Below are positions 24,001 through 30,000 of a stretch of 64,000 nucleotides of DNA, one piece after another. The stretch lies in assembly GCF_963853765.1 (NCBI RefSeq), contig NC_088856.1, forward strand, positions 7,936,001-8,000,000, in the 5' to 3' direction. Made by a program: the position numbers. Position 1 is the stretch's first letter. Each line of letters starts with the position of its first letter. This DNA comes from Magallana gigas. Taxonomy: Eukaryota.

Positions 24001-27000
24001 TATAAAATCATTCAGTTCTGAACCCGATCAAAGACTTCTGTCAGTTACTTAGTTCATTTAAAACCCAGCCAGAAATTAATGAATTTTAATCAAAGACATT
24101 CCTCTCCATATTTAAGAAAAATGATAATGTTCTAATCAGGAACTGATTTTCCTGTGTACATGATGCGGCAGGGCCACAATGTATAAACGACCCGTGTGGT
24201 CGTGTTGTAGTACTGCAATTCCACAAAGTGAAATGAGTGAATTATAGTGAAATAGAGTAAAATGAGGCTGTGTGTTAACTACACGTTGCGGCAGTTGATC
24301 ATATGGTCGATTTTGTTGCATGAAACAGAGGTGAAGTAACTGTTGCGGGGGTTGTAAATAGATTATATGTAGGTACACGGTGCAGCGAAGCTGTGTATAA
24401 TCCAACGGAGGAAGCGTCAGAGGTTTGTTTTCGGTATACCCCGTTCAAAATTCAATCAGTAACATTGACTCCTCCGTGCTGCTCGTTGACGAGTTTTCAT
24501 TGCCATTTATCTATTTTTACGGAATTCTCTCAAAACATATTTATTGCTCTTGACACTTTTAAACGTTTCTAGTGCCTTGTTGCACTGGTATTAATTTAAT
24601 GCGTCTTAAAATACCTATATCTACGCTGTTAACAATTATTGCCTACATATACTCAAGTTAAATTACAGTACTTGGGTAGTTGATTTAGGGAGTAAGTTTT
24701 GGGTCAGTTGCTAAGAGACACTAAGTCAGTCTTGGAGGAAAACAACAAAGTCCAAAGCTATGTGGTCAACATAGCCATTGATTGATTTATTGATTGAATG
24801 ATCGTGTTCTTATTCTGACCCTCTTCTGATATCCATATATTATTTACAATCAAAAATGACGGTTCTCTTTTACGATAGCTTTTGACGGCGATCTTTAATA
24901 ACAGGTGACAGGGTGATATACAGGTATTAGTACCCCAAAAGTCAATGTTTTGAATTTACAATCAACTATTCACATCATGAATCAAACACCAAATAGAAAA
25001 ATAACCTTAATAAACAAATTATTTCCTATTTTATTAAAATCACACTAGCGCTTCTTCTTGACATTAAAATATAAATCCCACGCTTTCCTATTTCGAATTT
25101 TACGTGTTATCAAGTGAGTGCAGAACATCATCACGGCACCGTACTTCAAGGCTTCGTACACCACGTATTTCCTCTCCACCCTGCAAAGACAGACAAAGAT
25201 TTCTTATTTATTTAAATAACCAGTAATATTCATTAAAAATAATGATAATATATGACATCATTTACAAAGGGCAAATGCTGTTAGTTCATGTAGGTGATAT
25301 TTATTAACCTGCTTTGTAAATCAATTGACATAATTCTACATGCCAAAATGATAATTTTCCCTTTTATTCATTACAAATTGACAAATCAGGAAGAGAGACA
25401 GACCTTAATTAAATTATATGATACACATGCACACTCTAAACTAAACTTGTAAATTGTAGAAAATTTAAGTATGTCTGAATTTTCTACAATTTAAAGACCT
25501 TAAGTCTTAAGTACAATTTTAAGTCCTTAAGACAATCTCTGGACCCTCAGTCTTACTGAATATACCTTATCTGTTGATAAGATACACCATTAGAAATCAT
25601 AACTTTTGAATTCATTTGTTATGCTGCATATCAAACAGTACATTAGGCTATATATTATTCCATTCAGATGTCGGAGAAAGATAACCCAATCACAGCATAG
25701 TACATAGAACATGTGGATTTATCTTTGAAAAAAAAATAAGTCATGACAGAAAGTAAGAAGTCTTCATAAGAAAAAAAATGTTTATGATTTTTGTTTAAAT
25801 AGATCACAATCAATGTACTTACGTTGTAAGTTTGTCAACATCCAAATCTACAGTGTTCCAGTTGGCTCTGATTCCCTCCAAATGTTCATTTCTTACTATT
25901 CCAACCACCACTGGTGTTTTGTCTGAAATAAAATATGCAAAGACAAGTTTTATTAACAAATTTATTACTGCATACAGGGAAACATTTGCCACCGTTTTAT
26001 TTTTGCCCATTTCGCCTCTTGTTGTCAGCAGGCGAATTTAGGACTTGTTGAATTCCAATATGCCAACTCCTATATCTTTAAACACAGCTGTGTCAGAGGT
26101 AGCAAACACATGAGGAGTTTAGAGGTTTAAAACCAATATCTGTTTATATCAAATAATTAAAAAAATGACACGTTGCTTGAAACCCTTTGTGAGTGGTCAG
26201 TGAGTTACCTGTGGGGGTGGGTTCTGCTGCCTTCTTCAGGGAGTAAGCTAGATATCTATCCCTATCACCGATCAGTACTCTCTTGAACGCTGGTAAGGAG
26301 TCAAACTCCCTCTCCATGGCCTGCTCTCTGTGTTCTTTATCCAATTCTAGTTCATGCTCTTCTGCAGGACTGTGGGTATAGATAAGGCAAAACAGGAGAT
26401 CAAAAATAGGTGCACGTTGATAAAAAACTATATTTGATATGGTCCAAATTTTTTTTAATAACTGCCCCCAATTTTAACCAATTTTTAAATAGTATCCTAT
26501 AAAATTTAAATCTTCATATATCATTTTACACAGGATGCCTATCACTTTAATCTTGATATTAGTAATCATTGTCCATTAGCTGTTAATCTATGATTCATTT
26601 AAATGAGCAAACAAATGAAAATATTGTCATTTTTTCTTTATACATGTATATGCAGATGGAGGTAAAGAGCGCAGGTCTGCCGAAATACAATTTTTACATA
26701 TGGTTTTGTTTGTATAATTATTCACATTATACTTAAAATGGGTACTTCAGCAAGCATCCGCTCTATGTTTCCCAGTCAAAAAACCATCGGAAAACACCAA
26801 TATTGTGCTCCAAAACATTAATTCATCAAAATATTAAGATCTCATTTCTACATTATGACATCACTGTGGTGATCACCTTTTGCATACTTATTTCCCATAT
26901 AGATTTCAACTATCTTCCACGTTATTTTTAAAACTCTTTAGAAAACTTTAATATTGGTGGCAAGAAATGCATAATACCGCATGCATAGTCCTTTTACTGC

Positions 27001-30000
27001 CATAGTTTTAAGTTTAAAATACAGTTATTCCCCTTTGCAAACCTTGCAATAGATTGAGTAAATTAGAATTCATTCTTCAGCAATGATATCAGTAACAATA
27101 CCTACTCTTTCAGTTCTTTCTTTTGTCTCTGGTACAATCTCCTGGCGTATGTGAATTTCTCCCTGAGGCTGGGAACTCCCCAGGTTCTATAGACAACAGC
27201 TTCATGTGGTAAATCAGCCAGGTGAAGTCTGCAGTCGGGAATCTTCTTCCTCTGTTACATAATATATTGTCAATATCAGAATTATTCTGTGTTAAAACCT
27301 TTTCCTGTACTTTAATATACCGTTGGCAGGTATTTGAGAATAAGGAAAGATTTTCTTTATAATTTTATATTTATACAGTAAAACTCGGCTATAGCGAAGT
27401 CCTAGGAACTAGTGGGTTTATTTCGTTATATCTGTTATTCGTTATATCCGATACCTTTAACAATCAGATTGTGAATTGAAAAATTTATATAAAATTAAAT
27501 TCATTCAAACTTTTATGTTAAATGGTAGTGACAACTTTTTAAACTGTAAAAAAATTCGTTATAAAAGTGTTTAATTTCGTAATCATTCACCTCTTCAGGA
27601 CTCAAAATAAGTTCGCTATATCATTAAATTTGTTATATACGAATTCGTTATAACCGTAATATTTCGCAAAGATTTGTGAAGAATTTTACCGAAGAATAAA
27701 AAAAACTTTGCTATATCCGAGACAGATCAGATATCCTAAGATAAAATTACAGAAAATAATAATAATACCTGAAGTTTGTATAATATTTCCCGAAACAGCC
27801 AAGTCTATCAGGGAATCTCACCTCATTATAAGCTTGTCTAAAGTCTGCATCAGGGGCTAGTCCTGTCTCCTTTGACTGTAGAGTCATCTGTTTATACAGC
27901 ATAGCTGCTACAAGTCCATCCTAAAATATAAACATTACTTGAAAATTTTTTAAAGAATTTAACCAAGTAATTTCTCTTTTGATTTCCATAACTTTCATTT
28001 TCCAGTTAAACTTTTGGTTTATCAGTCAAATTTGACCGGTACAAATGTGAAAGGGTTAATGACATGTGAGCAAAAAAAGGCTGAGAAAATATATGCAATA
28101 TGTGTAACAAAACAGCTTACCCCAAAAACTGTCATACAGAACACCCACAGGTTCACAGACAATGGAGAAAAATCAAGTTTCTTCAGGGCGTCTTCTTCTT
28201 TAAGTTTGATTTCATCTAATTTAGAAGAACTGCATTGCAAAGAAACTACACTTGGACGCAGTTGTTGTATAATCTAAACGTCGAGAGAAACAAAAAAATA
28301 ATGATCACAAAACGGTTGCATTGCATATGTTTATGAAATAGCTACATAATTTAATGTGTAAATTAAAATTAATGCAAAGAGAATATAAATCAAAAAGTTT
28401 TTGTAATACCATATTTAGTTATCAAAATTTATTTCTTGAGAATACTGGCCTTTTGATGAAGATTATCTTTCATGAATGTAACATAAAAATGAAGAAAAGT
28501 GTGTCTTGGACATTTAAACAGTGTACCAGTATTGAATGGTACAATTTGCCTTCTCATTTCATACTCGGGACAAAAATTATATGATTAAGTTGAGTCGACA
28601 AAGCTTTTTATTATTTACCTTGGATACATTTAGAAGACATTTTCTACAGAATCCATTGGTTCCCAATACATAGACCTTACTCCCCCACTCTGTTGTCAAC
28701 ACTTCACAGTTCTTTGGTAAAGGTTCTCGATTGATTGACTGAGGAACAGTCTGGTCAGCTGCCTAAAAAAGAAAACAAGCTTATTAATATTATTAATACC
28801 AGTTTGGCGCTTATTTATATCTGAATTCATTAAAATGACCTGGACACAATTTGAAATGCAAAATTTCATTTTTCATTTCTTAAGTTTAAAATGATTTACT
28901 TGAAAATGTGTATTTTGAATTACTGAACAAAATTTGAATGTTAGAAGTCATGTCATAAGCAAGATACAGACCTATGAAATCACTGTTGACATGTGTTATC
29001 AAAACTTGAGTAACAGTGTAATTATTTGTTTACAAATAATGTAAGAAATTACCGGTATGAGTATACATACAATTTCTTTAACAAAATGACTCCTTGCAAA
29101 CAAGACAAACTGAACAATAACAAGACTTGAGCTTAGCAGGTTTACATAACAAAGAATTTCAAACTCTGTATCTACATGTAGCATGCTTGTAACCCAATTT
29201 TTGACTTTCATGTAAAATACCCATACTAAATGGAAAAATGAAAATTTGGAGCCAAAATTGTGTCAATTAGGTCAGAGTTCATAAATCTGTGTGTTTATTT
29301 TATATTTCCTTTTAGTATAGTAGATTATAATGGTTAGTTGATTATCTTTTTTTACTACTCATCTCTATGAAGGTTTACACTAAGATATGTAGAGTTCAAA
29401 ACATAATTTTAAGCAACCATCCACATGTATATCTTCATATTGACATGATATCCTGAATAAATGATGATTTAAGATTTTAGCCAGTCTGTACATTAAATAA
29501 GTACTGTAAGAGGAGTATTACTATGAACTACGGAGATTTATGAACTACTGTTTTACGATTGTTTATGTTAATATAACTTTATAGAATATGATTATCAGAT
29601 TGGTACCAACTGCCAAATGGGAAATCATAAAATAGCCTGTTTGGGCTAAAATACCCCATATAACTACATAGTTCAAAGGATATGCGTACAGTATAATATG
29701 TAAATCATGAAGAAGGGGAGAATGCATATGCACATTACCCCACATGCATGTCCTACCGGCATAACTCGAATTTACTCTGTCGTTATGCAGTAAATATCAG
29801 AATTCAAAGTGAAAACGAGAACTAATAACAAAACTTTAGTTAATGAAACACAGAATGTTAGCACATATACCTTAGATTTCCCGAAAAACATCTAAAAATG
29901 TAACTTTTGACACTTTTTAGTTGATAACTGTAACAGTAACCTTTTCGGAGTTTTCCGAGTTTTCGTGTAACTGTATGTTTTTGTTTAGAATATTGATGAC

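What the first reader, a model, noticed from the sequence alone, without database searches (positions are those of the whole stretch)
25045..29891. TraB/TRABD-family gene with putative metal-site residues replaced: candidate pseudoenzyme paralogue
Seen versus the TRABD pattern as I recall it: VGTAH becomes LGTNG (His lost); VVVELC becomes VVSLQC (Glu lost); APGGEF becomes APDADF; GDRP becomes ADLP; ERD becomes DRD; VVGMGH becomes IVRNEH. Exon phases, the full ORF and the C-terminal hydrophobic anchor with basic tail are intact. Known: the TIKI/TraB superfamily is proposed to use conserved His/Glu residues as a metal site (Tiki is a Wnt-cleaving metalloprotease), and TRABD is a mitochondrial outer-membrane protein. 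Inference: a maintained but non-catalytic duplicate, probably alongside a canonical TRABD elsewhere in the genome, with a scaffold or regulatory role.
Basis: partly seen in the sequence, partly recalled or inferred. Interest (0 to 1): 0.65.

Follow-up and report, generated by a model that had tools for sequence, protein, structure and literature searches.

The report
Oyster TRABD paralogue lacking catalytic residues
This is an expressed, oyster-specific extra copy of the mitochondrial-surface protein TRABD that keeps the fold and membrane tail but has lost the residues its enzyme relatives need, so it most likely works by binding rather than by catalysis.

Summary
An 8-exon, 319-codon gene lies on the minus strand at 25045-29891, with all introns GT..AG. 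It matches RefSeq "traB domain-containing protein-like" of Crassostrea gigas and C. angulata.

Aligned with 267 other TraB-family proteins, it replaces nearly invariant residues: first His to Gly, Glu to Gln, GGE to DAD, GDR to ADL, ERD to DRD, GxGH to RNEH. The second His is kept. None of the 267 lacks both the His and the Glu.

Orthologues with the same replacements exist in C. virginica, Ostrea edulis and Saccostrea echinata. Each of these species also has a canonical TRABD with every motif intact.

The tree places the paralogue as sister to oyster TRABD (support 96/72) after a stem of 8 substitutions per site. An AU test does not make that placement decisive.

About 1-kb contigs encode the full spliced protein, which shows transcription. 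The AlphaFold model is confident, and its best solved match is the TraB-family accessory subunit of Tetrahymena complex IV, which shows the same His and Glu losses.

Verdict: a maintained, probably non-catalytic paralogue. Its role is inferred. dN/dS was not computable.

The parts
29871..29891 (-). Coding exon 1 (MFFGKSK, residues 1-7), donor GT
   Evidence: It is identical to residues 1-7 of the C. gigas and C. angulata RefSeq proteins P0015 and P0014. An AG acceptor lies directly upstream, so a 5'-UTR exon further upstream is likely but was not looked for.
28619..28762 (-). Coding exon 2 (residues 8-55). Holds LGTNG (28652-28666), where canonical TRABD has GTAH, and a new Cys-x-x-Cys (28637-28648).
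   Evidence: His is at the Gly44 position in 257 of 267 other family members. Cys is at position 46 in 0 of 267 and at position 49 in 1 of 267.
28121..28273 (-). Coding exon 3 (residues 56-106). Holds VVSLQC (28232-28249), where the catalytic Glu is replaced by Gln68.
   Evidence: Glu is at this column in 261 of 267 others; the remaining 6 are gaps.
27822..27920 (-). Coding exon 4 (residues 107-139). Holds APDADF (27840-27857), where the canonical protein has APGGEF.
   Evidence: In the others, Gly 265/267, Gly 244/267 and Glu 264/267.
27106..27251 (-). Coding exon 5 (residues 140-187 plus 2 nt of codon 188). Holds ADLP (27207-27218), where the canonical protein has GDRP.
   Evidence: Arg is at the Leu153 position in 260 of 267 others. 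Asp152 is kept.
26209..26369 (-). Coding exon 6 (residues 188-242, split codons at both ends). Holds DRD (26258-26266), where the canonical protein has ERD.
   Evidence: This is the only exon with a Pfam TraB hit of its own (E = 0.071, 13.4 bits, below the cut-off of 26.8). Glu is at position 223 in 251 of 267 others.
25823..25922 (-). Coding exon 7 (residues 242-275). Holds IVRNEH (25882-25899), where the canonical protein has VVGxGH. The second His (His255) is kept.
   Evidence: In the others, Gly 247/267, Gly 233/267 and His 247/267.
25045..25180 (-). Coding exon 8 (residues 275-319 plus stop). Holds a moderately hydrophobic segment ALKYGAVMMFCTHLI (25108-25152), a 20-residue basic tail (25048-25107) and the stop (25045-25047).
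   Evidence: The AF2 model makes residues 281-304 one helix. Tail net charge is +8 here and +6 to +8 in the orthologues, against +2 to +4 in canonical TRABDs.

Best explanation
The locus is an oyster-family (Ostreidae) paralogue of the TRABD gene. It arose by DNA-level duplication of the oyster TRABD gene, since it keeps introns. It then went through a burst of change that removed the N-terminal acidic extension and rewrote the TIKI/TraB active-site motifs, and it has been held under constraint in the new state since. The protein keeps the TraB fold and a C-terminal tail-anchor-like helix. It lacks one of the two catalytic His, the Glu paired with it, the other conserved Glu residues (now Asp) and the conserved Arg. 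It is therefore most likely a non-catalytic pseudo-hydrolase. I infer that it sits on the cytosolic face of an organelle membrane (mitochondrial outer membrane, possibly peroxisomes) and acts by binding partners or substrates of the TRABD system rather than processing them. Shown here: the gene model, the replacements, the paralogy, conservation across oysters, transcription and the fold. Inferred: loss of catalysis, membrane location and a binding role.
For: Gene model and identity:
- All introns are GT..AG.
- The exons match database proteins residue for residue: 310/316 to P0008, 306/316 to C. angulata XP_052678187.1 and 304/316 to C. gigas XP_011448881.1.

Transcription:
- 13 listed unnamed members of the 94-member cluster encode the whole 319-aa protein on contigs of 991-1072 nt. 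The genomic locus is 4.8 kb with introns, so these contigs must be spliced RNA.

Family and fold:
- A profile of the 4 oyster orthologues finds 504 proteins at E <= 0.001. The named top hits are TRABDs.
- The AF2 model has pLDDT 87.3 and pTM 0.81.
- The best Foldseek hits are the Tetrahymena complex IV TraB-family subunit (E about 1e-6, probability 1.00), then ChaN and erythromycin esterase EreC.

Loss of catalytic residues:
- In RRSP, a TIKI-family enzyme, the 2His/2Glu residues and a nearby Arg were each reported as essential. PMT, which lacks the 2His/2Glu motif, showed no endopeptidase activity (PMC6254334, passages read).

Paralogy:
- Canonical TRABDs with intact motifs exist in the same five species.
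- The paralogue clade has 100/100 support and is sister to oyster TRABD at 96/72. The stem is 8.06 substitutions per site. Tips are 0.28-0.42 for C. virginica, O. edulis and S. echinata (0.02-0.03 for the near-identical C. gigas and C. angulata pair), against 0.07-0.12 for canonical tips.
- It shares 4 derived states with oyster TRABD, against 0-2 with other groups.

Constraint:
- Of 57 positions at least 90% conserved in canonical proteins, 24 are kept and 12 are switched to a new residue invariant in all 6 paralogue sequences.
- Invariance is 36/57 at these positions against 102/262 elsewhere (p = 0.001).
- 19 of 319 sites vary among 15 C. gigas-group sequences and none is a motif site, against 22 of 376 for the canonical gene.

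Precedent for a non-catalytic TraB fold:
- The solved Tetrahymena subunit shows Asn for the His, Gln for the Glu, and a kept second His in the printed alignment.
- It is listed as a compact accessory subunit of complex IV (PMC10060162, one figure legend read).

Membrane anchor:
- The human TRABD C-terminal TM segment is reported as necessary and sufficient for outer-membrane targeting (PMC12329661, passages read).
- The paralogue's segment has similar hydropathy.
Against: - No activity, localisation or interaction data exist for this protein. Catalysis has not been shown for canonical TRABD either, so calling it a pseudoenzyme presumes an enzyme parent.
- The second His, Asp152 and Arg224 are kept, and Glu132 and Glu223 become Asp, which is conservative. 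A new invariant Cys-x-x-Cys sits where the first His motif was. A remodelled rather than dead site is therefore not excluded.
- The oyster-specific origin is favoured but not decisive. The AU test does not reject a tree that holds canonical bivalve TRABDs together without the paralogue (p = 0.258), and the 8-substitution stem invites long-branch error.
- Pfam's TraB model is matched only below its cut-off: 14.3-20.2 bits against 26.8.
- The hydrophobic segment is short and weak (about 13-15 residues, mean hydropathy 1.15-1.5), so membrane insertion is not certain.
- dN/dS was not measured.
Confidence: 0.7

Rival explanations
1. The active site is remodelled, not dead. The new invariant Cys46-x-x-Cys49 lies at the start of helix 47-60. 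Together with Cys26, Cys69/70 and the retained His255, it would form a new metal-binding (Zn or Fe-S) or redox-active centre. On this reading the protein has a new chemistry or sensing function.
For: - Cys46 and Cys49 are invariant in 18 of 18 paralogue sequences. Cys occurs at these columns in 0 and 1 of 267 other family members, which have Ser in 251 and 256 of 267.
- Cys26 is invariant, and position 69 or 70 is always Cys.
- His255, Asp152 and Arg224 are retained.
- 12 formerly conserved positions are fixed in a new state rather than drifting.
- In the model these residues lie at or just past strand ends (strands 26-30, 36-42, 64-67, 246-252). That is where the superfamily's active site lies (PMC6254334).
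Against:
- Ser to Cys is isosteric and could be neutral.
- Cys26 is also present in oyster canonical TRABD and in 35 of 267 others.
- No known metal or redox motif family was matched.
Confidence: 0.12
2. It regulates canonical TRABD directly, by forming a heterodimer with its active paralogue, as many dead-enzyme paralogues do.
For: - Both genes coexist in every oyster examined.
- In C. angulata and in O. edulis the two proteins are reported on contigs of the same length (60,476,782 and 88,744,346 bp), which suggests the same chromosome.
- General precedent for dead paralogues that activate their active partners comes only from abstracts in a search listing (PMC5201418, PMC3663545).
Against: - No evidence that any TRABD dimerises was seen in the passages read.
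- The different tail charge hints at a different organelle distribution.
Confidence: 0.08
3. It is a structural accessory subunit built into a mitochondrial membrane complex, like the TraB-family subunit of ciliate complex IV.
For: - The best solved sequence and fold match is that subunit.
- That subunit shows the same pattern of losses: His to Asn, Glu to Gln, second His kept.
Against: - Identity to it is only 16-17% and TM-score 0.46-0.49, so the losses are convergent, not inherited.
- The oyster protein derives from an outer-membrane, cytosol-facing parent.
- I saw no N-terminal presequence by eye in MFFGKSKAADQ...; no targeting predictor was run.
Confidence: 0.05
4. It is a decaying duplicate on its way to being a pseudogene, or an annotation artefact.
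For: - It shows very fast stem evolution.
- Its Pfam score is below the cut-off.
- Crown-group branches are about 3-5 times longer than those of canonical TRABD.
Against: - Intact ORFs of 319-324 aa exist in five species of four lineages.
- All 15 cluster members examined are full length.
- Spliced transcripts exist.
- Formerly conserved sites remain preferentially invariant.
- The fold prediction is confident.
Confidence: 0.03

Closest known systems
Metazoan TRABD (TraB domain-containing protein), tail-anchored on the mitochondrial outer membrane
   Same: - Same fold and collinear domain, 26-33% identity.
- A C-terminal hydrophobic helix at the same place.
- Its nearest relatives in the tree are oyster TRABDs.
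   Different: - It lacks the roughly 85-residue acidic N-terminal extension.
- It lacks the first His, the paired Glu, GGE, the Arg of GDR, the Glu of ERD and both Gly of GxGH.
- Its tail is much more basic.
- It evolves about 3-5 times faster.
- It is restricted to oysters in the searches made.
TraB-family accessory subunit of Tetrahymena thermophila complex IV (PDB 7w5z chain E, 8b6h, 8bqs, 8gym, 8gzu)
   Same: - Best solved match by sequence profile (E = 6e-8) and by fold (E about 1e-6).
- Same kind of loss: first His replaced, Glu to Gln, second His kept.
- It is a TraB fold used as a structural part (PMC10060162 legend).
   Different: - Only 16-17% identical, TM-score 0.46-0.49.
- It is a ciliate inner-membrane complex subunit.
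- The losses arose independently.
Tiki1/2 (TRABD2A/B), Wnt-cleaving metalloproteases, and the wider TIKI superfamily (erythromycin esterases, ChaN, RRSP, PMT C1/C2)
   Same: - Shared alpha/beta core. ChaN and EreC appear among the fold hits (ranks 4 and 5, E = 0.02 and 0.1).
- PMT is a described superfamily member without the 2His/2Glu motif and without endopeptidase activity (PMC6254334).
   Different: - Tiki is described as GPI-anchored at the plasma membrane and metal-dependent.
- The oyster protein is a TRABD-type intracellular form that lacks the catalytic set.

Membership tests
TraB/PrgY/GumN family (Pfam PF01963; TIKI/TraB superfamily) | Score at or above Pfam's gathering cut-off (26.8 bits) | tested here: not met
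   Exon by exon, 1 of 7 exons hits (13.4 bits, E = 0.071). The full-length database stand-ins P0008, P0010 and P0011 score 16.5, 20.2 and 14.3 bits.
TraB/PrgY/GumN family (Pfam PF01963; TIKI/TraB superfamily) | Significant full-length homology to family members by profile search | tested here: met
   A profile of the 4 oyster orthologues finds 504 proteins at E <= 0.001, 178 at <= 1e-10 and 7 at <= 1e-30. Alignments span profile positions of about 20-270. Named top hits are TRABDs, and canonical hits carry PF01963.
TraB/PrgY/GumN family (Pfam PF01963; TIKI/TraB superfamily) | TIKI-type alpha/beta fold | tested here: met
   The AF2 model of P0008 has pLDDT 87.3 and pTM 0.81. The top three Foldseek PDB hits are the Tetrahymena TraB-family protein (probability 1.00), followed by ChaN and EreC.
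Catalytically competent TIKI-family hydrolases | 2His/2Glu catalytic set plus a conserved basic residue | tested here: not met
   First His is Gly (Glu in Saccostrea). The paired Glu is Gln. The other conserved Glu residues are Asp. The Arg of GDR is Leu or Ile. Only the second His and the Arg of ERD remain. The mapping of TRABD motifs onto the RRSP/Ere residues is my inference from motif order, not a structural superposition.
Metazoan TRABD orthologue group | Branches as the species' TRABD orthologue | tested here: not met
   Each oyster has a separate canonical TRABD. The gene forms its own clade (100/100) beside them. It is a paralogue.
Metazoan TRABD orthologue group | C-terminal transmembrane anchor that targets the mitochondrial outer membrane | tested here: inconclusive
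   The hydrophobic helix is at the homologous place, with mean hydropathy 1.15-1.5 against 0.9-1.7 in canonical proteins. The tail is far more basic. No TM or targeting predictor was run and no experiment was available.
Pseudoenzyme (maintained catalytically deficient paralogue) | Enzyme fold, catalytic residues missing, yet conserved and expressed | tested here: met
   Fold. Missing residues. Conservation and transcription.
Pseudoenzyme (maintained catalytically deficient paralogue) | Demonstrated lack of activity, and an active parent enzyme | not testable with these tools
   This needs biochemistry. Protease activity of TRABD itself 'remains to be investigated' (PMC12329661).

The most novel reading that the evidence does not exclude
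The old hydrolase pocket has been converted into a cysteine-based centre: an invariant Cys46-x-x-Cys49 unique to this clade, plus Cys26, Cys69/70 and the retained His255. This centre would bind a metal or an Fe-S cluster, or sense redox state. The much more basic tail (+6 to +8) would move the protein partly or wholly from mitochondria to peroxisomes. That would make it a new organelle-surface sensor built from a protease fold, and a convergent second case, after the ciliate complex IV subunit, of a TraB fold recruited for a non-hydrolytic job.
Probability: 0.12. Interest if true: 0.7.

Novelty: new variant of a known kind. Interest (0 to 1): 0.4.

Why it matters
TRABD is a conserved organelle-surface protein whose biochemical activity is still unknown. 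It is unclear whether its functions in mitochondrial dynamics need the putative hydrolase site (PMC12329661).

Oysters carry a natural, long-maintained copy in which that site is rewritten while the fold and the anchor are kept. Comparing the two copies in one organism would separate binding functions of the TraB fold from catalytic ones. The comparison would cover partners, location and knock-down phenotypes.

The parallel with the Tetrahymena complex IV subunit suggests that loss of the first His and of the Glu is a repeatable route by which this fold becomes a structural or adaptor module.

For genome annotation, the gene should not inherit a protease or hydrolase function by homology.

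Tried and rejected
- Pfam on single exons gave almost nothing: 6 of 7 exons had no hit. The exons are too short.
- The near-length word-index search with P0008 found only the oyster clade and one distant protein, 5 hits among 659 candidates. Canonical oyster TRABDs came from a separate search with a freshwater-mussel TRABD.
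- A second TraB-like copy inside the 64-kb window was looked for by tblastn with paralogue and canonical queries. There is none; every hit outside the exons has E >= 0.18.
- Paralogues outside oysters: the six short extra hits proved to be single-exon read-throughs of oyster genes, 86-96% identical to oyster paralogues.
- AU test for placement outside bivalve TRABDs: not rejected, p = 0.258. The timing of the duplication therefore stays favoured, not proven.
- Complex prediction of the canonical oyster TRABD domain with the paralogue domain returned no verdict (score 0.00, mark 0.34, alignments not used). This counts neither for nor against binding.
- Model coordinates are not returned by the fold tool and are not in the script machine. 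Distances between the new cysteines and His255 could not be measured.
- dN/dS could not be computed, because no orthologue nucleotide sequences were available from any tool. Protein-level proxies were used instead.
- Literature. 'traB domain-containing' plus 'oyster' gave 1 paper, on sea urchin and judged irrelevant from its title and abstract start. For TRABD with pseudoenzyme, catalytically inactive or paralog, the 10 best-ranked of 2,772 papers held no TRABD occurrence. I therefore found no printed description, but these two searches do not prove absence.
- Supplementary tables, which are closed, may list this gene in oyster expression studies.
- The genome-contig collection (bacteria and archaea only) was not used because it is irrelevant here.

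Full report
**What is at the coordinates.** The minus strand between 29891 and 25045 carries a gene of eight coding exons. In window coordinates these are 29891-29871, 28762-28619, 28273-28121, 27920-27822, 27251-27106, 26369-26209, 25922-25823 and 25180-25045. All seven introns begin GT and end AG. The exons sum to 960 nt (319 codons and a stop). The window has no N. The three split codons read Asp188, Asp242 and Thr275, and the database proteins carry those residues at those positions.

**How the spliced model was handled.** The joined step was left out: at no point were the exons joined for a search, a fold or a script. Full-length analyses used database proteins returned by the searches as stand-ins. 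The main ones were P0008 (310 of 316 exon residues identical to the window), C. angulata XP_052678187.1 (P0014, 306/316) and C. gigas XP_011448881.1 (P0015, 304/316). Every residue the window encodes is seen in at least one of 15 members of that 90% cluster. The window therefore comes from an oyster of the Crassostrea (Magallana) gigas group. I take no contig here for human.

**The observation.** The canonical pattern it recalled is real.

| Paralogue residue | Canonical residue | Count among the 267 others |
|---|---|---|
| Gly44 | His | 257 |
| Gln68 | Glu | 261 |
| Asp130 | Gly | 265 |
| Ala131 | Gly | 244 |
| Asp132 | Glu | 264 |
| Ala151 | Gly | 254 |
| Asp152 (kept) | Asp | 266 |
| Leu153 | Arg | 260 |
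| Asp223 | Glu | 251 |
| Arg252 | Gly | 247 |
| Glu254 | Gly | 233 |
| His255 (kept) | His | 247 |

Most of the remainder in each column are gaps in truncated sequences.

Of the 267, 232 carry the full seven-residue pattern. Most of the other 35 are truncated or differ at only one or two of the seven positions. None lacks both the first His and the Glu.

There are two corrections of detail. The ungapped alignment makes the lost Glu a Glu-to-Gln change. The His of the second GxxH motif is retained.

**It is a family member by homology and fold, not by Pfam threshold.**
- Single exons are too short for Pfam: only exon 6 hits, at 13.4 bits.
- The full-length stand-ins reach only 14.3-20.2 bits against a cut-off of 26.8.
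- A profile of four oyster orthologues, searched against 1.84 billion representatives, finds 504 proteins at E <= 0.001. The alignments cover nearly the whole domain.
- Named top hits are TRABDs of a soft coral, a caddisfly, a sponge, a freshwater mussel and mammals.
- An AlphaFold2 model of P0008, built with a 100-sequence alignment, is confident (pLDDT 87.3, pTM 0.81).
- Its best matches among solved structures are the TraB-family protein of Tetrahymena complex IV (E about 1e-6, probability 1.00, TM 0.46-0.49), then ChaN and erythromycin esterase EreC. These are the expected members of the TIKI superfamily.

**It is a paralogue, and oysters keep the canonical gene too.**
- Orthologues of the window's gene exist in C. 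virginica (321 aa, 66% identical to P0008), Ostrea edulis (324 aa, 63%) and Saccostrea echinata (321 aa, 60%). All carry the same replacements.
- A search with a freshwater-mussel TRABD found separate canonical TRABDs in C. virginica, O. edulis and S. echinata. Their cluster mates are in C. gigas and C. angulata. All have GTAH, VELC, PGGEF, GDRP, ERD and GIGH intact.
- No second copy lies in this window.
- In C. angulata and in O. edulis the two proteins are reported on contigs of identical length. This suggests one chromosome, but not tandem copies.

**Where the paralogue branches.**
- In a 38-row maximum-likelihood tree (LG+C20, 390 columns) the paralogues form a clade with 100/100 support.
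- That clade is sister to oyster TRABDs (96/72), inside the pteriomorph bivalves.
- The stem is 8.06 substitutions per site.
- Terminal branches are 0.28-0.42 for C. virginica, O. edulis and S. echinata (0.02-0.03 for the near-identical C. gigas and C. angulata pair), against 0.07-0.12 for the canonical oyster genes.
- The AU test does not reject holding the 13 canonical bivalve sequences together without the paralogue (p = 0.258). The oyster-specific origin is therefore the favoured reading, not a proven one.
- The paralogue shares four derived states with oyster TRABD, against 0-2 with other groups.
- Between 128 and 640 bits the representative search holds nothing. The only other hits in the listing that belong to the paralogue clade are oyster single-exon fragments.

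**It is maintained and transcribed.**
- Thirteen listed unnamed members of the 94-member cluster encode the complete 319-aa protein on contigs of 991-1072 nt. That is possible only for spliced RNA from a 4.8-kb locus (40 of 94 members read, 15 listed).
- Of the 57 positions at least 90% conserved in 94 canonical proteins, 24 are kept and invariant in six paralogue sequences. Another 12 are switched to a different residue that is itself invariant, and 21 vary.
- Invariance is 36/57 at these positions against 102/262 elsewhere (Fisher p = 0.001).
- Between species the paralogue is 60-70% identical where the canonical gene is 78-84%.
- Within the C. gigas group, 19 of 319 sites vary among 15 sequences and none is a motif site, against 22 of 376 for the canonical gene.
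- I could not compute dN/dS, because no tool gave orthologue DNA.

**How it most likely works.**
- In RRSP, a TIKI-family enzyme, the 2His/2Glu residues and a nearby Arg were each reported as essential.
- The family mechanism is described as a His-Glu pair that activates water. It is metal-independent in erythromycin esterases and RRSP, but metal-dependent in Tiki.
- PMT, which lacks the motif, showed no endopeptidase activity (PMC6254334, passages read).
- The oyster protein lacks one His, the paired Glu and the Arg of GDR, and turns the other two Glu residues into Asp. On either mechanism the known chemistry should be lost. This is inference from residues. The mapping of TRABD motifs onto the RRSP residues is mine.
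- Human TRABD is anchored in the mitochondrial outer membrane by a C-terminal segment that is necessary and sufficient for targeting. Its N-terminal domain faces the cytosol. Whether it is a protease is stated to be open (PMC12329661, passages read).
- The paralogue has a helix at the same place (residues 281-304 in the model), of similar modest hydropathy. Its 20-residue tail has net charge +6 to +8, against +2 to +4 in canonical proteins.
- In mammalian cells a highly charged tail with a moderately hydrophobic segment directs tail-anchored proteins to peroxisomes. Lowering the charge shifts them to mitochondria (PMC5450235, passages read).

My best reading is therefore a non-catalytic, tail-anchored adaptor or decoy on the cytosolic face of mitochondria and perhaps peroxisomes.

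**Precedent.** The solved Tetrahymena subunit shows Asn for the first His, Gln for the Glu and a retained second His in the printed alignment. It is a compact accessory subunit of complex IV (PMC10060162, one figure legend read). With only 16-17% identity, this is a convergent parallel.

**What does not fit a simple 'dead enzyme'.**
- The two Ser residues that follow the first His in canonical proteins (Ser in 251 and 256 of 267) are both Cys in all 18 paralogue sequences. Cys occurs there in 0 and 1 of the 267 others.
- This creates a Cys-x-x-Cys at the start of helix 47-60.
- Cys26 is invariant, and position 69 or 70 is always Cys.
- By strand topology these should lie near His255.
- A remodelled metal or redox site is therefore the boldest reading the evidence leaves open.

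**Novelty and verdict.** The gene is already annotated in RefSeq as 'traB domain-containing protein-like'. I did not find any description of its catalytic-residue loss, its restriction to oysters, its coexistence with canonical TRABD, the new cysteines or the parallel with the ciliate subunit. This rests on two literature searches only, and supplements were closed. I rate it a new variant of a known kind, of moderate interest.

Noticed in passing
window 40729-43041 (+) and 53592-55874 (+): Two tandem, apparently intronless Toll-like-receptor ORFs (770 and 760 aa; LRR_8 plus TIR domains). They are 94% identical over 727 residues, which indicates a recent tandem duplication.
   Followed up: partly
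window 21454-23046 (+): A single 530-aa open frame with three WAP four-disulfide-core domains (Pfam E = 6e-25), separated by a long Pro/Ser-rich spacer. It lies about 2 kb beyond the 3' end of the TraB-like gene on the other strand.
   Followed up: partly
window 5104-5472 (+), perhaps also 4331-4732 (+): Exon-sized open frames. The first matches Pfam Exportin-T (E = 3e-12), so part of an exportin-T gene lies at the left end of the window.
   Followed up: partly
window 30166-30248: A perfect (AG)41 microsatellite lies about 275 bp upstream of the ATG exon of the TraB-like gene.
   Followed up: no
window 31900-32608 (+): Two overlapping open frames look like a retroelement remnant. One has a weak zf-RVT match (E = 0.009, below the cut-off).
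   Followed up: no
residues 1-11 of the paralogue (window 29871-29891 and 28751-28762): The extreme N-terminus is conserved across oyster genera: Met1, Phe2, Lys5, Lys7, Ala8, Asp10 and Gln11 are invariant in 4 of 4 orthologues. The next 10-15 residues vary. This may be a conserved N-terminal signal of unknown meaning.
   Followed up: no
not in the window: proteins P0189 and P0190 (Sinanodonta woodiana): A freshwater mussel also has two TRABD copies (92% and 66% identical to the Potamilus protein). The second keeps the catalytic set apart from one Arg-to-Lys change. TRABD duplication in bivalves therefore does not by itself entail loss of the motifs.
   Followed up: partly
not in the window: canonical oyster TRABDs P0273, P0280, P0281, P0253: The canonical oyster proteins have an acidic N-terminal extension with a conserved SGEESDxEDN-type patch. 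The paralogue lacks it entirely.
   Followed up: no
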